This document shows positions 43,674-53,483 of a stretch of 64,000 nt of DNA, piece after piece. Position 1 is the stretch's first letter. Every line of letters begins with the position of its first letter. The stretch is taken from the NCBI RefSeq assembly GCF_056746865.1, contig NZ_CM163382.1. The stretch is one strand, 5' to 3'. The position numbers and the translations under genes are program-made. Below the pieces are notes generated by a model. It saw nothing but the letters and a program-made list of their open reading frames with translations, did no database searches and had not been told where the DNA came from.

Positions 43674-44213
43674 ATGCAACCACTTCCATACCAACAGACT
43701 AGCGGATTTAGCCCGACTGCGGTGATAAATCGTTCTCAAACAAAACAGGTGCCAGGCCACGAAAAAATCCGTGATGCCGTCCGCGCCTGGTCGGCTGTAG
43801 ATAATCAGGATGTCGTTGCCACACTCATTGTGAATGAGTATCGGGAGCAGGGCGGCGGCACCATCGATTTCCCTGATGATGTCAGCCGTGCACGCCAGAA
43901 GCTGTTCCGCTTCCTCGATAACAAATTCGATTCTGAAAAATACCGAAATAACGTGCGTGAACTGACCCCGGCAATTCTGGCGGTACTACCGCTGGAATAT
44001 CGCGGTTACCTGGTTGAGCAGGATAGCTTCATGGCTAGGTTGGCTGAAATGGAAAAGGAACTCAGTGAGGCAAAACAGGCTGTCATTCTCAACGCACCAC
44101 GCCACCAGAAACTGAAGGAAATTAGTGAAGGTATTGTATCGATGTTTCGTGTGGACCCAGATCTGGCTGGTCCATTGATGGCGATGGTTACTACCATGCT
44201 GGGGGCGATATGA
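43674..44213 (+). CDS. CII-position regulatory protein (YdaT/CII-like family suspected)
   Basis: 179 aa; position between cro and O; family assignment from memory, not verified. Confidence 0.45.
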   Translation: MQPLPYQQTSGFSPTAVINRSQTKQVPGHEKIRDAVRAWSAVDNQDVVATLIVNEYREQGGGTIDFPDDVSRARQKLFRFLDNKFDSEKYRNNVRELTPAILAVLPLEYRGYLVEQDSFMARLAEMEKELSEAKQAVILNAPRHQKLKEISEGIVSMFRVDPDLAGPLMAMVTTMLGAI

Positions 44214-44299
44214 CAGGTTCAGAAATGGCGAAAGCCGGTCTGCTGGAACAGAACCGACTTTCAGGTGCAAATCGTAACACACTCATTGCGGGAGGAATT

Positions 44300-45229
44300 A
44301 TGGCAAACACTGCTGAGATATTCAATTTTCCAGTGCCGGATGCGGCACAAAAGGAGCCGCGCGTGGCAGATCTCGATGATGGTTATACGCGCATTGCAAA
44401 TGAGTTGCTGGAAGCTGTGATGCTGGCCGGATTAACACAGCACCAGCTTCTGGTCTTCCTGGCTGTCATGCGCAAAACATATGGCTTTAATAAAAAACTG
44501 GATTGGGTGAGCAACGAGCAACTTTCCGAATTGACCGGGATATTGCCGCACAAGTGTTCTGCTGCAAAAAGCGTTCTGGTAAAGCGTGGGATTCTTATTC
44601 AGAGCGGGCGGAATATCGGCATTAATAATGTGGTCAGTGAATGGTCAACATTACCCGAATCAGGTAAGAAAAATAAAGTTTACCTGAAAGAGGTAAATTT
44701 ACCTGAATCAGGTAAGAAAAGTTTACCCAAATCAGGTAAAGGCGTTTACCCGAATCAGGTAAACACAAAAGACAAACTAACAAAAGACAATATAAAACCT
44801 TTTTCGTCCGAGAATTCTGGCGAATCCTCTGACCAGCCAGAAAACGATCTTCCTGTGGTGAAACCGGATGCTGCAATTCAGAGCGGCAGCAAGTGGGGGA
44901 CAGCAGAAGACCTGACCGCCGCAGAGTGGATGTTTGACATGGTGAAGACTATCGCACCATCAGCCAGAAAACCGAATTTTGCTGGGTGGGCTAACGATAT
45001 CCGCCTGATGCGTGAACGTGACGGACGTAACCACCGCGACATGTGCGTGCTGTTCCGCTGGGCCTGCCAGGACAACTTCTGGTCCGGTAACGTGCTGAGT
45101 CCGGCCAAACTCCGCGACAAGTGGACCCAGCTCGAAATCAACCGGAACAAGCAACAGGCTGGCGTGACAGTCGGCAAACCAAAACTCGACCTGACAAACA
45201 CTGACTGGATTTACGGGGTGGATCTATGA
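44300..45229 (+). CDS. O: Replication initiator O (lambda-like C-terminus, divergent iteron-binding N-terminus)
   Basis: Start at ATG 44300 (MANTAEIFNFPVP) with GGAGG RBS; C-terminal ~110 aa match lambda O (PENDLPVVKPDAAIQSGSKWGTAEDLTAAEWMFDMVK...). Confidence 0.85.
   Translation: MANTAEIFNFPVPDAAQKEPRVADLDDGYTRIANELLEAVMLAGLTQHQLLVFLAVMRKTYGFNKKLDWVSNEQLSELTGILPHKCSAAKSVLVKRGILIQSGRNIGINNVVSEWSTLPESGKKNKVYLKEVNLPESGKKSLPKSGKGVYPNQVNTKDKLTKDNIKPFSSENSGESSDQPENDLPVVKPDAAIQSGSKWGTAEDLTAAEWMFDMVKTIAPSARKPNFAGWANDIRLMRERDGRNHRDMCVLFRWACQDNFWSGNVLSPAKLRDKWTQLEINRNKQQAGVTVGKPKLDLTNTDWIYGVDL
44640..44770 (+). repeat. Origin iterons (ori) inside the O gene
   Basis: Four or more direct repeats of tacc(c/t)gaatcaggtaa(g/a), giving the repeated LPESGK peptide; followed by an AT-rich stretch. 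Confidence 0.75.
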
Positions 45230-45927
45230 AAAACATCGCCGCACAGATGGTTAACTTTGACCGTGAGCAGATGCGTCGGATCGCCAACAACATGCCGGAA
45301 CAGTATGACGAAAAGCCACAGGTACAGCAGGTAGCGCAGATCATCAACGGTGTGTTCAGCCAGTTACTGGCAACTTTCCCGGCGAGCCTGGCTAATCGTG
45401 AGCAGAACGAACTGAACGAAATCCGCCGCCAGTGGGTTCTGGCTTTCCGGGAAAACGGGATCACCACGATGGAACAGGTTAACGCAGGAATGCGCGTAGC
45501 CCGTCGGCAGAATCGACCATTCCTGCCATCCCCCGGACAGTTTGTAGCCTGGTGCCGGGAAGAAGCATCCGTTATTGCCGGACTACCAAACACCAGCGAG
45601 CTGGTTGATATGGTTTACGAGTATTGCCGGAAGCGTGGCCTGTATCCGGATGCAGAGTCTTATCCGTGGAAATCAAACGCGCACTACTGGCTGGTTACCA
45701 ACCTGTATCAGAACATGCGGGCCAATGCGCTTACTGATGCGGAATTACGGCGCAAGGCTGCCGATGAACTGACTTGTATGACCGCGCGAATTAACCGTGG
45801 TGAGGCGATACCTGAACCAGTAAAACAACTTCCTGTCATGGGCGGTAGACCTCTAAATCGTGCACAGGCTCTGGCGAAGATCGCAGAAATCAAAGCGAAG
45901 TTCGGACTGAAAGGAGCAACTGTATGA
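45226..45927 (+). CDS. P: Replication protein P (DnaB helicase loader)
   Basis: 233 aa, near-identical to lambda P. Confidence 0.92.
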   Translation: MKNIAAQMVNFDREQMRRIANNMPEQYDEKPQVQQVAQIINGVFSQLLATFPASLANREQNELNEIRRQWVLAFRENGITTMEQVNAGMRVARRQNRPFLPSPGQFVAWCREEASVIAGLPNTSELVDMVYEYCRKRGLYPDAESYPWKSNAHYWLVTNLYQNMRANALTDAELRRKAADELTCMTARINRGEAIPEPVKQLPVMGGRPLNRAQALAKIAEIKAKFGLKGATV

Positions 45928-46226
45928 CGGGCAAAGAGGCAATTATTCATTACCTGGGGACGCATAAGAGCTTCTGTGCGCAGGACGTTGCTGCGGTAAC
46001 AGGCGCAACAGTAACCAGTATAAATCAGGCTGCGGCTAAAATGGCACGGGCAGGAATCTTGGTCGTTGATGGTAAGGTCTGGCGAACGGTGTATTACCGG
46101 TTCGCTACCAGGGAAGAACGGGAAGGAAAGGTGAGCACGAATCTGATTTTCAAGGAGTGTCGCCAGAGTGCCGCGATGAAACGAGTGTTGGCAGTGTATG
46201 GAGATATGAACTTAAACTTGCTGTGA
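45924..46226 (+). CDS. ren: Ren (Rex-exclusion resistance) protein
   Basis: 100 aa, matches lambda Ren (MTGKEAIIHYLGTH...). Confidence 0.88.
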   Translation: MTGKEAIIHYLGTHKSFCAQDVAAVTGATVTSINQAAAKMARAGILVVDGKVWRTVYYRFATREEREGKVSTNLIFKECRQSAAMKRVLAVYGDMNLNLL

Positions 46227-46474
46227 CGGTTTTCATCGGTAACACACCATGTAATCTAGCAGTCAGCTTAGAAATAGGAGCGGCAGTTAAAGATTTTTCA
46301 GTTAGTAGAAAATTACTGTTATTGCAGGGATCTAATCACCGGAGAGTCGTTCCATTTGTCTTATGATTACCTGAAGTCCGTTAGTTCGTTGGTAATCACC
46401 GTTTTTGTTAGAGAAGTAAGCATCGCTGACAAAATATTCTCAACGATGCCTGCTTTATTGCTACTACAAATTAA

Positions 46475-47977
46475 TTAAATTGCATCTGCAAACTCTGGGG
46501 TTTTTCGCTCAGGTATAATTGATGAGTTGCTGTTGTCACTTTTTTTATTTTCATGATTACGAATAGCCAATGACTCATTAAAGTCTTTTGCGACTGCTGT
46601 CTCAATAAATTCAATTTCTGAATCAGAGTGTTTTTTAACAGCTTCTTTGATCTCATCCAGAGTAACATAGAAAAACTCTTTTCTACGATTTACAAGATTG
46701 ACTCTCTTTTTATCGAAGACATCATGTAGTTTTTTTTCTAATGATGGAGCGTCCTCCGAATAAATCATGGCATGTACATCAAAAATAAAAGGAACAGATG
46801 CATCACCGAGCTCATTTACACGGTCTTGCGGATCAAGACGTCGTGTCATGCCTATTTTATAAACATTCTCCCCAAAAGAACCTATGTTCGAAATAATATA
46901 AACATGACCTTGTTTGGTTTGTTGTGCCATGGATAATGCTCTTTGATGCTTTGATTCAGCCTGCGACAAACTCTGTTCTAGTTCGGCAATGCGATTTTCG
47001 AGGCGCTGCTTCATGTCACCAGTAACTTTTTCCATTTCCTTTCTTGCAGCTTCAATTGCTTTTTTATAACGGCGCTCTTCTGCCTCTGCGTCTTGCATGG
47101 CCTTTTCTATTTCTCGTTGTGCACGCTCCTCCTCTCTCATTTGTGCCCTTATTTCTGCCTGTTCTTCTTTTTCTTTCTGTTTTTGCTCACGATATTCATG
47201 GGTAAGCCACAATTCCTCAAGTTTTTTATTGAGGTATTTAGTGTTTATATATATGTGATTTTGCTCGTTTAGTTTATTTATGGCCTCAAATGCCTTTGTG
47301 ATGCGTTCTTCCATTTTAGTGATGTTTTTCCACGTGCAATTGCTAATTGCAGCATCACATTCATTATTAAATGCTCTAGTAGTTAGCCTGATATTTCTGT
47401 CTGTCATTTTTTTACCCTCTGCTCGAGAGCCTTCAACAGTCCATTGGGTTGTACAATATACTGCGCCAGAGTGGGTTTTATCCCGCAGCATTAATTTCTG
47501 TTCATCCCTGATGGATTTTATTTTGTTTTTAAATTGCTCTGAATCTTCAAAATTAAAATGAGGTTCGTAAAATCCTAGTTCGGCTAGCTCAACATCTTCT
47601 GAATAAATAGAAATTTGCCTTACTAGTTTATCATATATTTCTTTCTTCTCTTTATAAGTTCTTCTTAGCTCTTGGATTTGTTTATTGATACCATCCATTT
47701 TTTCAATGGTGTTTGTTAGTTCATTATTGGCATTTTCTTTTACTTTTAGGGATTCTTCTTTTATTATGGAGCATTCTTGCTCTGTTTTCTCAATAAGCTT
47801 CTTACATTCTTCTTCTACATTAAAATAATCTGCAAAGCGAGATTTGTATTCTTCATTTTTTTGATTGCTATCACTTAATTCTAATTGTATTTTTTTGATG
47901 CGTTTGATTGCAGCTATATAAAGAACAAGAACAACCAATAAAAATATGATTGCAAGTAATAGAGGAGTTTGAGTCAT
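46475..47977 (-). CDS. Membrane-anchored coiled-coil protein with C-terminal T5orf172/GIY-YIG-like domain (DUF4041-like middle region)
   Basis: 500 aa; N-terminal TM helix (LLLAIIFLLVVLVLYIAAI); long E/K/R-rich coiled coils; C-terminal GHVYIISNIGSFGENVYKIGMTRRLDPQDRVNELGDASVPFIFDVHAMIY; antisense to flanking phage genes; strongly AT-rich. Confidence 0.7.
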   Translation of the reverse strand: MTQTPLLLAIIFLLVVLVLYIAAIKRIKKIQLELSDSNQKNEEYKSRFADYFNVEEECKKLIEKTEQECSIIKEESLKVKENANNELTNTIEKMDGINKQIQELRRTYKEKKEIYDKLVRQISIYSEDVELAELGFYEPHFNFEDSEQFKNKIKSIRDEQKLMLRDKTHSGAVYCTTQWTVEGSRAEGKKMTDRNIRLTTRAFNNECDAAISNCTWKNITKMEERITKAFEAINKLNEQNHIYINTKYLNKKLEELWLTHEYREQKQKEKEEQAEIRAQMREEERAQREIEKAMQDAEAEERRYKKAIEAARKEMEKVTGDMKQRLENRIAELEQSLSQAESKHQRALSMAQQTKQGHVYIISNIGSFGENVYKIGMTRRLDPQDRVNELGDASVPFIFDVHAMIYSEDAPSLEKKLHDVFDKKRVNLVNRRKEFFYVTLDEIKEAVKKHSDSEIEFIETAVAKDFNESLAIRNHENKKSDNSNSSIIPERKTPEFADAI

Positions 47978-48276
47978 TCGTGCTATTCCTTACGGACAAT
48001 TTAAGACGTTTTGTATTAAATCCTGTTCAATGTGTATGCGGGTGATTGCTACCGCTTACAATCTTCATAATTATCAGTTAGATAGACTCGCTAGTAAATA
48101 ATTTCATTTTTTGCAATATTCTTATTGAATATTTCAATTTATGAAATGAACTCTTTATCCTTTCAAGGTGAAAGGTTTCTTCTTCGGAAATATTTGCTCT
48201 CGTGTGACGTATAAAGACCTTTGATTTTCAAAAATCAGTAGGGAATAATATAGTTACTGTCGGCCTGAACACCCGG

Positions 48277-48375
48277 TGGTGGGGTTGCGCTAAACGGGGA
48301 CGTTTATGCGCACACACAATCCAAACTCTCATCTCCATTCACAGATGCAGAAATGCACCTACGATTTTTTACATT
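48277..48375 (+). repeat. Direct repeat copy 1 (~90% identical to 50221-50315)
   Basis: gcgctaaacggggacgtttatgcgcaca...cacagatgcagaaatgcacctacgatttttt. Confidence 0.85.
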
Positions 48376-48467
48376 CGGTGTTTTACTTCGACAGCCAGAA
48401 TTGGGAGTCTCTATTCGTCTGGCGGCTAAAGGTGATATGGAAATCGTTATGTTTTGGCCTGAGGTAG
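48306..48467 (+). CDS. YlcH-like small ORF, divergent paralogue (within direct-repeat copy 1)
   Basis: 53-aa ORF MRTHNPNSHLHSQMQKCTYDFLH... homologous to the 33-aa ORF at 50240; possibly non-functional. Confidence 0.3.
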   Translation: MRTHNPNSHLHSQMQKCTYDFLHSVFYFDSQNWESLFVWRLKVIWKSLCFGLR

Positions 48468-48789
48468 TTGTAACTGTTGTAGCAGCTATGGATGTGATCA
48501 TCATGGTGTCCATTTACTGGGGTTGACGACATGATTTATCCGGCGCTATATTCTGTGCGTTGCCGCAAAATCGGCACACGGGATTGGCGTCCCGGGATAC
48601 TACTCAACGCATACCGCGTTAAGCGGTTTTTTTGTGCGCTAAGCACGGCTATGCCCAAATTATGGTGGGCTGTGTGAGGGCTTCTTCGGAAGCGCCGGGT
48701 TTGAGTAGCCGGTTACGCCAACCTTACACAGTTCACCACCAGTCGATTGGCGTCGTTGGTGGTGATGGTTAACCTGATGAGGTGATACT

Positions 48790-49398
48790 ATGACTACTCA
48801 ATTAGCATTCCACAAAACGACGTTTACCCCGATTTGCCACAATAACAGAATTTGGCTTACTGCCACTGAAGTTGGTTTAGCACTGGAATATGCGGACGAT
48901 AAAGCAGTTCAGCGCATTTACTCTCGGCACTCAGATGAATTCACAGATATGATGACAAGGGTGGTCAAAGTGACCACCCCTCGTGGAATGCAGGAGTCTC
49001 GAGTATTTAGCCTTCGCGGAGCCCATTTGATCGCCATGTTTGCTCGTACTCCTGTGGCCAAAGAATTCCGCCGCTGGGTTCTGGATATTCTCGATCGAGA
49101 AGTTCAACAATCCCCAATCACAAAACAATTCACTGATAACGAACTTTGCACACTCGCCTGGTTATGGCGAGCAAGTGATACGATGTTAACCGCCTGCCAG
49201 AACGTTACGCCCCTTCTTCAGGTCGCAGAGCATCGCGAAGCAGGTAGATTCACTTCAATCGAACAAGAATATCCTCGGATACTCAACAGGGCGCGAGAAA
49301 TCCTTGCCAGAGAAACGGCGCATGTAAAATTCCAACCGTGGCAGGATGATAAGTGGAGTCGTGTGTTACCATATTTCCGTCAGAATCTGTTGCAATAA
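48790..49398 (+). CDS. Bro-N/antirepressor-like protein
   Basis: 202 aa; N-terminal Bro-N-like region (LAFHKTTFTPICHNNRIWLTATEVGLALEY...SRVFSLRGAHLIAMFARTPVAKEFRRWVLDIL). Confidence 0.6.
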   Translation: MTTQLAFHKTTFTPICHNNRIWLTATEVGLALEYADDKAVQRIYSRHSDEFTDMMTRVVKVTTPRGMQESRVFSLRGAHLIAMFARTPVAKEFRRWVLDILDREVQQSPITKQFTDNELCTLAWLWRASDTMLTACQNVTPLLQVAEHREAGRFTSIEQEYPRILNRAREILARETAHVKFQPWQDDKWSRVLPYFRQNLLQ

Positions 49399-49416
49399 AG
49401 TCACTAGTTAGAAATA

Positions 49417-49458
49417 CTGCCAGCATTCTGCGATGACGGAAGTGCTGGCATTTTTTTT
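49417..49458 (+). terminator. Rho-independent terminator after the Bro-N gene
   Basis: ctgccagcattc...gtgctggca hairpin followed by T8. Confidence 0.7.
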
Positions 49459-49633
49459 GGTAATGTGCGAGTCCATTTCATAAAATACGGGTACTGGAAC
49501 TGGACGATATAATCTAAAAGATACCATTATCAGTAGCATTAAAATCGCTATGTGCCGATACGGATATAAATTATATTGATTGTTCACATACCTTATTGGA
49601 TATTACTGAGGGGTGTTTATATAAGGTGTAACG

Positions 49634-50143
49634 ATGATGTGGAACTTTGACAGTGCCGACTTAAGTGCAATAGCAGCAGGCATTTCTGCGTTTGGCACAT
49701 TAGCCGCAGCGGGGTCGGCGCTTGCAAGTTGGTGCACGTCAAAAAAAGCGCTGCAGCTACAAAATAGAGTTTACCTTTATGAGTCTTTAAAGGCTTGCGC
49801 TGAGAGAGCCAATTCATCAGCTAAAGATAAGCGCGGATCTGAATGGAGCGTTAATGATGCAGCGGATATCATCAGGTGCCTAGTACGGGCGATGGAGCTC
49901 ATCAAGCAGGATAGCCAGCAGAAAGAAGGTAATCAGGCATTAATGTTGAAACAGTACTTTGTTAATCTGCTAATAATGGAACTGTACGAGGAAGTTCATA
50001 ACGGTGATGCGGCTGATTCTGTTTTTAAAAGTACGGAACCTACACAAGTACTTGATAACTTATGGAGCAAATGGCAGGAGGCTATAGCTTTTTTTGATAT
50101 TTGGAATTACCCAGTTGCGACTGAGGAAGACTTGGCAGACTAA
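49634..50143 (+). CDS. Hypothetical protein with N-terminal hydrophobic helix
   Basis: 169 aa; AT-rich upstream region; no recognised family. Confidence 0.5.
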   Translation: MMWNFDSADLSAIAAGISAFGTLAAAGSALASWCTSKKALQLQNRVYLYESLKACAERANSSAKDKRGSEWSVNDAADIIRCLVRAMELIKQDSQQKEGNQALMLKQYFVNLLIMELYEEVHNGDAADSVFKSTEPTQVLDNLWSKWQEAIAFFDIWNYPVATEEDLAD

Positions 50144-50220
50144 TTTTCAGCACATTTGATTTCCAATAATCAACCAGCCATAATCATGCCATTGGAGCTT
50201 GAACAACTCCGGTGACTTCT

Positions 50221-50315
50221 GCGCTAAACGGGGACGTTTATGCGCACATACAATCCAAACTCTCTTCTCCCTTCACAGATGCAGAGATGCACCTGCGATT
50301 TTTTGCATCCAGCGT
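50221..50315 (+). repeat. Direct repeat copy 2
   Basis: See copy 1. Confidence 0.85.
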
Positions 50316-50341
50316 TTGACCTCTGCGGAGGTGAAGCGTGA
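50240..50341 (+). CDS. ylcH: Small protein YlcH-like (33 aa)
   Basis: [33 protein letters not shown]; stop overlaps the ybcN GTG start. Confidence 0.5.
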
Positions 50342-52400: not shown

Positions 52401-53483
52401 TTAGAACTGGTAAACCAGACCTACAGCAACGATGTCATCAGTATCAATACCAGCTGTTTTGGTAAACTTACTATCGTCAATTAAGTTGATTTTGTAATCA
52501 ACAAAAGTGGACATGTTTTTATTAAAGTAGTAAGTAGCACCGACATCGACATACTTGACTAAGTCTCGGTCACCATGAACACCAAGGTCTTTACCTTTTG
52601 ACTGAAGGTAAGCAACAGATGGGCGCAGACCGAAGTCAAACTGATATTGTGCTACTGCTTCAAAGTTTTGTGCTTTGTTTGCAATATGGTTATTACCAAA
52701 AACGGTCATATTCTGAGTTTCAGAATATGTGGTAGCCAGATAGATATTGTTCGCATCATATTTCAGGCCTGCAGCCCATACTTCCGCATTTTTGCCGGAG
52801 GCATTGAATTTGCTCTTACCATAGGCGACCTGACCGTCAGTGCGATCTGATTTAGCATAGGTTGCACCCACGCCGAATCCTTCATACTCATAAGTAGTGG
52901 AGAAACCGAAACCATCACCATTGGCTTCAGTTACGTCAGTGCGGTCATTTTTACCCTGATACTGAGCAGCAAAGTTCAGGCCATCGACCAGACCAAAGAA
53001 GTCGTTGTTACGATAAGTTGCAACACCAGTAGTGCGACCAGTCATGAACACATCTGTTTGGGTCCAGGTATCACCACCGAATTCTGGCAGGACGTCAGTC
53101 CACGCACCGATGTCGTATGCTACACCGTAGTTACGGCCGTAATCGATTGAGCCGTAATCACCAAATTTCAGGCCTGCAAATGCAAGACGGGTTTTGTCTT
53201 TGGAAGAACCTTGAGATTCAGCGCGGTTGCCTTTGAATTCATATTCCCACTGACCGAAACCAGTCAGTTGATCGTTGATTTGGGTTTCACCTTTGAAGCC
53301 AAGACGGGCATAAGTAGTATCACCATCATCTGCATCATTAGAGGAGAAGTAGTGCTTAGCATTAACTTTCCCGTACAGATCCAGCTTGTTACTGTCTTTA
53401 TTATAAATTTCAGCTGCCTGAGCAGACATCGCCATCAGTACTGATGCAGCTACAGCAGAAATTGCCACTGTTAATTTTTTCAT
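52401..53483 (-). CDS. nmpC: General porin (OmpC/OmpF/NmpC family), uninterrupted
   Basis: 360 aa; signal peptide [23 protein letters not shown]; C-terminal ...GLVYQF. Confidence 0.88.

What the first reader, a model, noticed from the sequence alone, without database searches (positions are those of the whole stretch)
49459..50143. 169-aa unknown protein with hydrophobic N-terminus and its own AT-rich upstream region
Follows a strong terminator and ~175 bp of AT-rich DNA, so it is likely independently transcribed. The protein (MMWNFDSADLSAIAAGISAFGTLAAAGSALASW...) has an N-terminal hydrophobic helix and no motifs I recognise. Its placement inside the repeat-bracketed cargo cassette next to an antirepressor suggests a moron function such as superinfection exclusion or a membrane-associated Abi, but this is pure inference.
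Basis: inference. Interest (0 to 1): 0.5.

Follow-up and report, generated by a model that had tools for sequence, protein, structure and literature searches.

The report
Orphan membrane-anchored prophage cargo gene
This is a real, conserved 169-residue gene with no known function, carried as optional cargo by lambda-like prophages of E. coli and its relatives. It appears to have its own promoter and a membrane anchor, so it is a reasonable candidate for a phage-versus-phage conflict gene, but nothing here shows what it does.

Summary
ORF 49634-50143 (+) is a genuine gene under purifying selection (dN/dS about 0.1). It follows a strong terminator hairpin (49418-49450 plus T8) and 175 bp of 35% GC DNA. 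It lies in a cassette bracketed by a duplicated 'pre-ninB' unit.

The window matches Escherichia phage PhiR26_1. The protein belongs to PHROG 1779 (unknown function), a small Enterobacterales-only family. It has no Pfam, NCBIfam, PADLOC or PDB match and no informative fold match.

Relatives always sit in early regions of temperate phages or satellites, co-oriented with the early genes and with no conserved partner gene. In E. coli the gene occupies the last slot before ylcH-ninB. A 46%-identical allele fills the same slot in similar backbones.

Six divergent loci share a conserved TTGnnn-17-GATATT block just upstream of the gene.

The N-terminal Ala/Ser/Gly-rich helix has an acidic N-flank and a basic C-flank. 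This predicts an N-out/C-in anchor with an acidic all-helical cytoplasmic domain ending in an invariant (D/E)EDLxD tail.

Independent transcription and moron status are supported. The antirepressor link is local to E. coli. A superinfection-exclusion or Abi role remains a guess (about 0.3). The cassette neighbours are more remarkable: SNIPE (PD-lambda-1) and an IsrK/C4-controlled antirepressor.

The parts
49418..49458 (+). Intrinsic terminator that ends the antirepressor operon: hairpin 49418-49450 followed by T8 at 49451-49458. It insulates the target gene from upstream transcription.
   Evidence: -21 kcal/mol, z = -2.9, 0 of 200 shuffles fold as well. Sequence read.
49459..49575 (+). AT-rich spacer. 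It is conserved only among E. coli-type loci and contains further weak promoter-like matches (TTGGTA-18-TAAAAT at 49457-49486; TATAAT at 49506-49511).
   Evidence: 34.9% GC for 49459-49633.
49576..49604 (+). Conserved promoter-like block: -35 TTGATT at 49576-49581, a 17-nt spacer, and -10 GATATT at 49599-49604. The predicted transcription start is near 49611. The -10 lies in the loop of an inverted repeat (ATACCYT ... AGGGGT/AGGGTAT) that is followed by a U-rich stretch.
   Evidence: TTG and GATATTA are invariant in six loci whose proteins are 63-83% identical and whose further-upstream DNA is unrelated; the hairpins. The site matches 8 of 12 consensus positions, below the scan threshold.
49623..49628 (+). 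Shine-Dalgarno-like AAGGTG, 5 nt before ATG1 and 8 nt before ATG2.
   Evidence: Sequence. In the window copy it can pair with 49590-49595 in transcripts that come from upstream.
49634..50143 (+). CDS of 169 aa, PHROG 1779, RefSeq WP_000990010.1 'hypothetical protein'.
49661..49732 (+). Residues about 10-33: Ala/Ser/Gly-rich hydrophobic helix with a conserved small-residue face (S18, A24, A26, A29, S32). The N-flank is acidic (D6, D9) and the C-flank basic (K37, K38, R45). Predicted N-out/C-in membrane anchor.
   Evidence: hydropathy and flank charges in 23 family members; conserved columns; continuous helix 7-63, pLDDT 50-63 over the first 30 residues.
49742..50116 (+). Residues about 37-161: acidic all-alpha domain (pI 4.75 for residues 37-169), predicted to be a helical bundle and to face the cytoplasm.
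   Evidence: pLDDT 76-94 over residues 31-120; only family members or generic helical bundles as structural neighbours; pI.
50117..50140 (+). C-terminal tail ATEEDLAD. The motif T-(D/E)-E-D-L-x-D at the very C-terminus is invariant among the closer relatives.
   Evidence: T163, E165, D166, L167 and D169 are invariant in alignment A1 and mostly kept in A2.
50156..50323 (+). Downstream 'pre-ninB' unit, copy 2: promoter-like TTGATT-17-CATAAT (50156-50184), a hairpin with loop CTTGAACAA (CCTGAACA(A/C) in copy 1 and relatives), a hairpin with loop GGGGAC, and a terminator-like hairpin 50280-50297 plus T-run. It also holds the annotated 33-aa ylcH-like ORF 50240-50341. It provides the 3' boundary and the terminator of the target gene.
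   Evidence: Its 3' part is present in 2885 of 5426 E. coli genomes.
48221..48389 (+). Copy 1 of the same 'pre-ninB' unit: the 5' boundary of the cassette.
48546..49398 (+). Rest of the cassette: c4-a1b1-like targets (48546-48598), IsrK (48561-48633), C4 antisense RNA (48658-48743), a 46-codon ORF (48632-48772) and the antirepressor (48790-49398). The promoter-like TTGACG-18-TATATT lies just 5' at 48523-48552.
   Evidence: C4 74.8 bits against a gathering score of 45; IsrK 58.7 against 50. PMC4825925 describes the Gifsy-1 isrK-orf45-anrP layout.

Best explanation
The gene is a stand-alone 'moron'-type cargo gene of temperate lambdoid phages. It is a member of PHROG 1779.

**Shown**
- It is a real gene under purifying selection.
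- It occurs only in early regions of Enterobacterales prophages and satellites.
- It has no conserved partner gene.
- In E. coli it occupies the last slot before ylcH-ninB, a cargo hotspot. Divergent alleles (46% identical) replace each other at that slot.
- Terminator-like hairpins flank it, and a conserved -35/-10-like block precedes it.

**Inferred**
- It is transcribed from its own weak sigma-70 promoter (start near 49611), so it can be made in the lysogen. N-antiterminated pR transcription reads through it during lytic growth.
- The short acidic N-tail is translocated and the Ala/Ser/Gly-rich helix spans the inner membrane, as in the Pf3 coat protein (N-out/C-in).
- The helix self-associates through its small-residue face.
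- The acidic helical domain and its invariant (D/E)EDLxD tail face the cytoplasm, where they dock onto a partner.

**Most likely role (a guess)**
Interference with an incoming or competing phage at the cytoplasmic face of the inner membrane. This would be superinfection exclusion or abortive infection that benefits the prophage, working alongside the neighbouring SNIPE nuclease but independently of it.
For: - Real gene and family.
- Cargo status: present in 177 of 5426 complete E. coli genomes, while the flanking pre-ninB DNA is in 2885. A second allele occupies the same slot in 26 genomes. In K-12 DLP12 I recall this ren|ylcH slot holding other cargo; that is from my own knowledge of the K-12 map and was not tested here.
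- Insulation and own promoter: upstream terminator; invariant TTG-17-GATATTA block in six divergent loci; hairpin plus U-tract directly before the SD in several subfamilies, including a strong terminator 9 nt before the ATG preceded by TATAAT in L061; terminators right after the gene in L006, L009 and L064 and in the pre-ninB unit.
- GC 44.5% against 49.6% for the window.
- Membrane anchor and topology. The hydrophobic segment is present in all 23 members, with the N-flank net acidic and the C-flank carrying +2 to +5.
- Defence-rich surroundings: SNIPE/PD-lambda-1 lies 1.6 kb away (bioRxiv 10.1101/2025.11.03.685801). An RT+SLATT_5 pair lies 2 kb from the L009 homologue.
Against: - There is no experimental or homology evidence for any function.
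- No PADLOC hit for the target or for nine relatives.
- I saw no mention of this gene in the passages I searched of the E. coli pangenome selection that recovered its neighbour PD-lambda-1 (PMC9519451). I did not check whether the gene was on any selected fragment, so this carries little weight.
- In every one of about 12 distinct contexts the gene is co-oriented with the early operon. In L009 it overlaps the upstream gene by 4 nt, which means operonic expression without its own promoter.
- The promoter match is weak (8 of 12 positions), and more distant subfamilies (L006, L009, L010) lack the block.
- The window copy's hydrophobic helix is marginal for membrane insertion (KD 1.59; summed Hessa scale +2.7 kcal/mol).
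- As far as I recall, several characterised superinfection-exclusion proteins expose their functional domain to the periplasm (own knowledge, not checked here). This protein's domain is predicted to be cytoplasmic.
Confidence: 0.33

Rival explanations
1. Early lytic-cycle accessory factor. The protein is made mainly from N-antiterminated pR/pL transcripts after infection or induction. It acts on a host inner-membrane or membrane-proximal target, for example host take-over, anti-defence against a membrane-bound system, or modulation of replication or lysis timing. It would not protect the lysogen.
For: - The gene is always co-oriented with, and embedded in, early operons: the nin region, the pL-side ea region between recombination genes and xis/int, and after Ead/Ea22.
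- In L009 the start overlaps the upstream theta-like gene by 4 nt.
- Its neighbours are typical early accessory genes: Ead/Ea22, DUF551, theta/Hot-like proteins and DNA methyltransferases.
Against: - The conserved -35/-10-like block and the terminator-like hairpins directly upstream argue for autonomous, insulated expression.
- The gene is dispensable and patchy, present in 3.3% of E. coli genomes.
Confidence: 0.3
2. Functional partner of the adjacent IsrK/C4-controlled antirepressor. For example, a membrane tether or modulator of the P22AR_C domain that tunes induction.
For: In every E. coli-type locus that carries this allele and holds enough upstream DNA (about 40), the gene directly follows an antirepressor. 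The antirepressor's C-terminal ~104 residues are conserved (84-100%) even where its N-terminal domain differs.
Against: - A strong terminator separates the two genes.
- Homologues in other genera have unrelated upstream genes and no P22AR_C neighbour.
- The 46%-identical allele in the same phage backbone follows a different 268-aa gene.
- The linkage is explained by a shared recombination module.
Confidence: 0.06
3. The protein is not membrane-inserted. The Ala-rich N-terminal helix is an oligomerisation (alacoil-type) helix of a soluble cytoplasmic protein. This concerns localisation only, so it can combine with either functional reading above.
For: - The window copy is marginal for insertion (KD 1.59; summed Hessa scale +2.7 kcal/mol).
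- AlphaFold draws one continuous helix over residues 7-63.
- There is no signal peptide or lipobox. C34 is not conserved (C34Y in most alleles).
Against: - Relatives reach KD 2.0-2.5, with summed Hessa values near or below 0.
- The charge asymmetry (acidic N-flank, basic C-flank) is conserved in nearly all 23 members.
Confidence: 0.15
4. A decaying or non-functional ORF.
For: - Within E. coli, polymorphic sites are 14 non-synonymous to 4 synonymous, close to neutral.
- One frameshifted copy was found (L046).
Against: - dN/dS is about 0.1 against homologues at 74-83% identity.
- Length, N-terminal helix and C-terminal motif are kept down to 28% identity.
Confidence: 0.02

Closest known systems
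PHROG 1779 (phage protein family, function unknown)
   Same: Full-length match (residues 1-169 on profile positions 1-169 of 169, E = 1.7e-102). All distant relatives that were tested map to this same family and to no other.
   Different: Nothing differs. This is the family, and it carries no functional annotation.
Morons of lambdoid phages (promoter-gene-terminator cargo units such as lambda bor/lom or HK97 gene 15; concept recalled from the literature)
   Same: - An optional gene inserted between conserved genes.
- Terminators on both sides.
- A conserved promoter-like block.
- GC lower than the backbone.
- Patchy distribution.
   Different: Expression from the repressed prophage has not been shown. 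Some distant relatives sit in operons with no promoter of their own.
Single-pass membrane superinfection-exclusion proteins (HK97 gp15, P22 SieA, T4 Imm; recalled from my own knowledge)
   Same: A small prophage- or phage-encoded inner-membrane protein encoded outside the structural and replication core.
   Different: There is no sequence or fold similarity. The predicted topology puts the globular domain in the cytoplasm rather than the periplasm. No phenotype is known.
SNIPE / PD-lambda-1 (neighbouring gene 46475-47977, minus strand)
   Same: It lies in the same ren-ninB cargo hotspot. It also has an N-terminal membrane anchor with the rest of the protein inside the cell (bioRxiv 10.1101/2025.11.03.685801).
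   Different: - The target has no nuclease or DUF4041 domain.
- The two genes are not linked: in the IMG/VR set, SNIPE accompanies the target in only 13 of about 40 E. coli-type loci.
- They are transcribed in opposite directions.
Pfam DUF4760 (PF15956)
   Same: UniProt/UniRef label three relatives 'DUF4760 domain-containing': A0A6N6K568 and A0A3N4P9D7 and A0A0K3T8Z2, which is P0093. Those relatives are of similar size (166-171 aa).
   Different: hmmscan against the current Pfam-A finds no DUF4760 match, even at E <= 10, for the target or for P0093, and none among the matches listed (E <= 0.1) for the 23 aligned relatives. DUF4760 has no known function in any case.
Pf3 coat protein type of N-out/C-in membrane insertion (recalled from my own knowledge)
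   Same: A short acidic N-tail, one hydrophobic helix, and basic residues right after it.
   Different: This is only an analogy for the insertion mode. The sequences are unrelated, and the target carries a domain of about 130 residues.

Membership tests
PHROG 1779 | Full-length significant match to the family profile | tested here: met
   E = 1.7e-102, residues 1-169 on profile 1-169 of 169; nine relatives at 26-46% identity all hit the same PHROG.
Pfam DUF4760 (PF15956) | Match to the Pfam HMM | tested here: not met
   no Pfam hit even at E <= 10 for the target or for P0093, which UniRef labels DUF4760; no DUF4760 hit among the matches listed (E <= 0.1) for any of the 23 family members.
Known or candidate anti-phage defence proteins (PADLOC-DB 2.0) | Match to any PADLOC model | tested here: not met
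   no families at E <= 0.1 for the target; only noise-level hits (E >= 0.002) for nine relatives.
Moron (autonomous cargo transcription unit in a lambdoid prophage) | Present in some but not all otherwise syntenic phages, between conserved genes | tested here: met
   177 genomes carry the gene against 2885 carrying the flanking pre-ninB DNA; the content between ren and ylcH-ninB varies.
Moron (autonomous cargo transcription unit in a lambdoid prophage) | Own promoter directly upstream | tested here: inconclusive
   invariant TTG-17-GATATTA in six divergent loci. It is a consensus match only (8 of 12 positions), there are no transcript data, and it is absent in L006, L009 and L010.
Moron (autonomous cargo transcription unit in a lambdoid prophage) | Terminator downstream (and insulation upstream) | tested here: met
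   (upstream terminator). (50280-50297 plus T-run); hairpin plus T-run within about 20-50 nt after the stop codon in L006, L009 and L064.
Moron (autonomous cargo transcription unit in a lambdoid prophage) | Expressed from the repressed prophage | not testable with these tools
   This needs RNA-seq or 5' RACE on a lysogen. No paper was found that mentions the gene.
Superinfection exclusion / abortive infection protein | Inner-membrane localisation | tested here: inconclusive
   a conserved hydrophobic helix and charge bias, but the window copy is marginal (KD 1.59).
Superinfection exclusion / abortive infection protein | Reduces plating of a superinfecting phage | not testable with these tools
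   No experimental data were found in the literature library.
Antirepressor operon (P1 immI / Gifsy-1 isrK-orf45-anrP type) | Co-transcription and conserved linkage with the antirepressor | tested here: not met
   a terminator lies between the two genes; there is no antirepressor next to the homologues outside the E. coli module.

The most novel reading that the evidence does not exclude
PHROG 1779 could be a previously unrecognised single-gene conflict factor that sits at a fixed slot of lambdoid genomes (the last gene before ylcH-ninB) and diversifies there. It would be an N-out/C-in membrane-tethered acidic helical domain that uses its invariant (D/E)EDLxD C-terminal tail to capture a phage or host protein at the inner face of the membrane. 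It would be expressed from a promoter whose -10 element lies inside the loop of a terminator-like hairpin. Upstream transcripts would then stop at the hairpin, while the gene's own transcripts would start past its left arm and read through.
Probability: 0.25. Interest if true: 0.55.

Novelty: new member of a known kind. Interest (0 to 1): 0.33.

Why it matters
If the gene does exclude or abort other phages, it would add a very small single-gene system to the prophage defence repertoire of E. coli. It lies 1.6 kb from SNIPE, in a hotspot (ren to ylcH-ninB) that could then be mined systematically.

The host phage, PhiR26_1, has been isolated and its record gives E. coli K-12 MG1655 as host, so the tests should be simple.

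If the gene instead acts in the lytic cycle, it is one more of the many unassigned early accessory genes. In either case the present evidence makes it a sensible but ordinary candidate, not a surprise.

Tried and rejected
**Sequence and profile searches that gave nothing**
- Pfam, on the target, on 23 relatives and on P0093.
- NCBIfam.
- PADLOC.
- A PDB profile search, best E = 0.13.

**Structure route**
- The AlphaFold2 model built from a 23-sequence alignment has mean pLDDT 77.6.
- Foldseek against AFDB50 returned only nine Enterobacterales family members.
- Foldseek against BFVD returned nothing at E <= 0.001.

**DUF4760 lead**
- The label appears on database names but could not be reproduced with HMMER.

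**Conserved partner gene**
- Upstream and downstream neighbours from eight contexts are unrelated to one another. The exception is a theta-like protein, adjacent in two contexts but on opposite sides of the gene. Rejected.

**Signals looked for and not found**
- Lipoprotein or signal peptide: no lipobox, and C34 is not conserved. Rejected.
- A CII-type TTGC-N6-TTGC repeat or a LexA box in the promoter region, by eye. Not present.
- An IsrJ-like or other Rfam RNA in the AT-rich spacer: none at E <= 1.

**Literature**
- Searches by accession, phage name and PHROG id found no paper that mentions the gene.

**Technical failure**
- The search for related loci with the wide alignment A2 failed because it has no conserved peptide stretch. 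It was rerun with alignment A1.
Full report
**1. The observation**

- An SD-like AAGGTG sits at 49623-49628.
- There are two tandem ATGs. Several natural alleles carry ATA at codon 1, so the second ATG (49637) may be the true start.

The 'strong terminator' is real. It is a bulged hairpin at 49418-49450 followed by T8 at 49451-49458. The 71-nt stretch folds at -21 kcal/mol, z = -2.9, and none of 200 shuffles folds as well. The pattern scan missed it because of the bulge.

The spacer 49459-49633 is 34.9% GC. The CDS is 44.5% and the whole window 49.6%.

The cassette is bracketed by a direct repeat at 48286-48389 and 50220-50323, 89% identical. By alignment the repeat extends to about 48221 and 50156.

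**2. A real gene**

- The protein matches PHROG 1779 (unknown function) over its full length, E = 1.7e-102.
- Homologues exist down to 28% identity.
- Against homologues at 74-83% identity, dN/dS is 0.09-0.10. For more distant ones, synonymous sites are saturated while pN stays at 0.2-0.47.
- Among near-identical E. coli alleles, polymorphic sites are 14 non-synonymous to 4 synonymous. That is about neutral, as expected for very recent divergence.

**3. Where the window comes from, and the neighbourhood**

The region is 100% identical to Escherichia phage PhiR26_1 (PV340555.1) and 98% identical to PhiR5_1. The gene order is:

| Window coordinates | Strand | Feature |
|---|---|---|
| 44210-46226 | + | O, P, ren |
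| 46475-47977 | - | PD-lambda-1, recently renamed SNIPE, a membrane-bound nuclease that cuts phage DNA during injection (PADLOC E = 1.9e-198; bioRxiv 10.1101/2025.11.03.685801) |
| about 48221-48389 | + | First copy of the 'pre-ninB' unit |
| 48561-48633 | + | IsrK RNA |
| 48658-48743 | + | C4 antisense RNA |
| 48632-48772 | + | 46-codon ORF |
| 48790-49398 | + | Antirepressor ('P22AR C-terminal domain-containing protein') |
| 49418-49458 | + | Terminator |
| 49634-50143 | + | The target gene |
| about 50156-50323 | + | Second copy of the pre-ninB unit, with the 33-aa ylcH-like ORF at 50240-50341 |
| from 50338 | + | ninB/ybcN, ninE, ybcO, rusA, ylcG, Q |
| 52401-53483 | - | Porin |
| from 54057 | + | Lysis genes |

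The RNA-plus-antirepressor part matches the Gifsy-1 isrK-orf45-anrP layout (PMC4825925).

**4. Family and distribution**

The family is small.
- 22 representatives among 1.84 billion sequences at the 50% clustering level.
- 41 clusters at 90% identity when searched with a profile.
- Named members come from Escherichia, Citrobacter, Enterobacter, Klebsiella, Raoultella, Hafnia, Pantoea, Scandinavium and Dryocola.

Prevalence is low.
- The full locus is in 177 of 5426 complete E. coli genomes. The DNA just upstream of ninB is in 2885.
- Only two isolated phages in the phage collection carry the gene.
- A 46%-identical allele (P0093) occupies exactly the same slot in similar O/P backbones. It occurs in 26 genomes.

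**5. Genomic context of relatives**

In about 12 distinct contexts the gene lies in an early region of a temperate element and points the same way as its neighbours.
- Directly before ninB or ylcH-ninB: L003-L005, L058-L060, L066-L070.
- Elsewhere in the nin region: L010, L061, L062.
- On the pL side, between recombination genes and xis/int: L006-L008.
- After an Ead/Ea22-like gene: L064.
- In an integrase-bearing island next to an RT+SLATT_5 pair: L009.

No partner gene is conserved. The neighbours are mutually unrelated, apart from a theta-like protein that is adjacent in two contexts but on opposite sides.

In E. coli-type loci the gene always follows an antirepressor. Only the antirepressor's C-terminal ~104 residues are constant (84-100%). 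In the IMG/VR set, SNIPE is present in only 13 of about 40 such loci. So the antirepressor linkage reflects a local recombination module and not a functional rule.

**6. Signals around the gene**

*A conserved promoter-like block.* Six divergent loci (window, L003, L004, L046, L048, L052) share a block that starts about 60 nt before the ATG. Their DNA further upstream is unrelated.
- Within the block, TTG (-35) and GATATTA (-10) are invariant and exactly 17 nt apart.
- In the window these are TTGATT at 49576-49581 and GATATT at 49599-49604.

*A hairpin around the -10.* The -10 lies in the loop of an inverted repeat that is followed by a U-rich stretch.
- The repeat is ATACCCT...AGGGTAT in most loci.
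- It is a perfect 9-bp repeat in L048.
- It is wobble-paired in the window copy.

*Other subfamilies.* L058 and L061 carry TATAAT directly 5' of a terminator-like hairpin that ends 0-9 nt before the SD or ATG.

*My reading (inferred).* The hairpins stop transcripts arriving from upstream. Transcripts from the gene's own promoter begin past the left arm and so escape termination.

*Limits and other signals.*
- This is a consensus argument. The site matches only 8 of 12 consensus positions, and the distant members L006, L009 and L010 lack it. L009 overlaps its upstream gene by 4 nt.
- Terminators follow the gene in L006, L009 and L064, and in the pre-ninB unit of the window.

**7. The protein**

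*N-terminal helix.* Residues about 10-33 form an Ala/Ser/Gly-rich hydrophobic helix.
- Its Kyte-Doolittle mean is 1.59 in the window copy and 1.5-2.5 across the family.
- A small-residue face is conserved (S18, A24, A26, A29, S32).
- The N-flank is acidic and the C-flank carries +2 to +5.
- By the positive-inside rule (established knowledge) this predicts an N-out/C-in anchor.
- There is no signal peptide and no lipobox. C34 is not conserved.

*Rest of the protein.*
- It is acidic: pI 4.75 for residues 37-169.
- AlphaFold2 predicts a long stalk helix (residues 7-63) followed by a helical bundle, with mean pLDDT 77.6 and pTM 0.67.
- The extreme C-terminus T-(D/E)-E-D-L-x-D is invariant among the closer relatives.

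*No homology to anything characterised.*
- No Pfam hit, no NCBIfam hit and no PADLOC hit.
- The PDB profile search gave a best E of 0.13.
- Foldseek against AFDB50 returned only nine family members, and against BFVD nothing.
- Three relatives are labelled 'DUF4760' in UniProt/UniRef, but HMMER does not reproduce that assignment.

**8. Interpretation**

Shown:
- a genuine, stand-alone cargo gene of temperate-phage early regions;
- insulated by terminators;
- preceded by a conserved promoter-like block;
- carrying a conserved hydrophobic N-terminal helix and an acidic helical domain.

Inferred: autonomous transcription, and N-out/C-in membrane anchoring with a cytoplasmic domain.

Guessed: a role in phage-phage conflict, meaning superinfection exclusion or Abi, at about 0.3.

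The main rival has nearly equal weight. It is an early lytic-cycle accessory protein read from antiterminated pR/pL transcripts, and the invariable co-orientation with early operons favours it.

A functional tie to the antirepressor is unlikely (about 0.06). A junk ORF is excluded.

**9. Novelty and score**

The family is already catalogued (PHROG 1779; RefSeq WP_000990010.1) but has no assigned function, and I found no paper on it.
- It is best described as a new, untested member of a known kind: a prophage moron or accessory membrane protein.
- A specialist would not be surprised by it.
- Its value lies in being easy to test. PhiR26_1 has been isolated, and its record gives E. coli K-12 MG1655 as host.
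- Interest: 0.33.

The neighbouring features (SNIPE, the IsrK/C4-antirepressor module, and the duplicated structured pre-ninB unit) are at least as noteworthy as the target itself.

Noticed in passing
window 48546-49398 (+): An antirepressor module controlled by an antisense or small RNA. It contains Rfam C4 antisense RNA (48658-48743, 74.8 bits against a gathering score of 45), IsrK (48561-48633, 58.7 against 50) and c4-a1b1-like targets (48546-48598, below gathering). These are preceded by a good promoter match (TTGACG-18-TATATT at 48523-48552) and followed by a 46-codon ORF and the antirepressor gene. The layout is the same as Gifsy-1 isrK-orf45-anrP (PMC4825925) and P1 immI. Here it lies in the nin region of an E. 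coli lambdoid phage.
   Followed up: partly
window 46475-47977 (-): The 500-aa gene is PD-lambda-1 (PADLOC E = 1.9e-198; DUF4041 plus a T5orf172-type nuclease). It has recently been characterised as SNIPE, a membrane-bound nuclease that cleaves phage DNA during injection (bioRxiv 10.1101/2025.11.03.685801). Its region is very AT-rich (27-40% GC) and sits between ren and the first pre-ninB unit.
   Followed up: yes
window 48221-48389 and 50156-50323 (+); also L003, L004, L052, L058: A duplicated and widely conserved 'pre-ninB' unit. It has a near-palindromic promoter-like site (TTGATT-N6-AATCA then ATAAT). Next comes a hairpin with a near-invariant 9-nt loop CCTGAACA(A/C) whose stem sequence differs between genera, then a hairpin with loop GGGGAC, then a terminator-like hairpin plus T-run. 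It overlaps the annotated 33-aa ORF ylcH (50240-50341). Its 3' part is in 2885 of 5426 E. coli genomes. There is no Rfam match. RNAalifold found some compensatory pairs in hairpins 2 and 3, but hairpin 1 was misaligned. It could be an unannotated small RNA or leader, or a protein-binding RNA element.
   Followed up: partly
window 45924-50337; K-12 DLP12 (recalled, not fetched): The interval between ren and ylcH-ninB behaves as a cargo hotspot. It holds SNIPE plus the antirepressor/target cassette here, three small minus-strand ORFs plus a longer antirepressor in PhiR5_1, and Ead/Ea22-like genes plus the 46%-identical allele in other prophages. From my own knowledge of the K-12 map, DLP12 carries emrE-ybcK-ybcL-ybcM at this position.
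   Followed up: partly
window 48790-49398; loci L002, L022-L044: The antirepressors at this locus are modular. The C-terminal ~104 residues (P22AR_C) are 84-100% conserved while the N-terminal DNA-binding-type domain is swapped (68% identity or none detectable). This implies a recombination breakpoint inside the gene.
   Followed up: partly
window 52401-53483 (-): An OmpC/NmpC-like porin gene (360 aa) lies between the Q antiterminator and the holin, as in DLP12 (nmpC). It is annotated OmpD/OmpC in the matching records. It is a lysogenic-conversion-type cargo gene.
   Followed up: no
L009 2031-3931 (-), Dryocola sp. chromosome: A reverse transcriptase (RVT_1) plus SLATT_5 gene pair, the signature of a retron/DRT-like defence system, lies about 2 kb from a distant homologue of the target. 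Both are in a small integrase-bearing island that also encodes Ogr/Delta and a theta-like protein.
   Followed up: no
L058-L060 1-363 (-): A DUF7946/DUF7947 protein is encoded next to, and on the same strand as, the CI-like repressor in the prophages that carry the 46%-identical allele. This position, next to the repressor, is often used by prophage defence genes.
   Followed up: no
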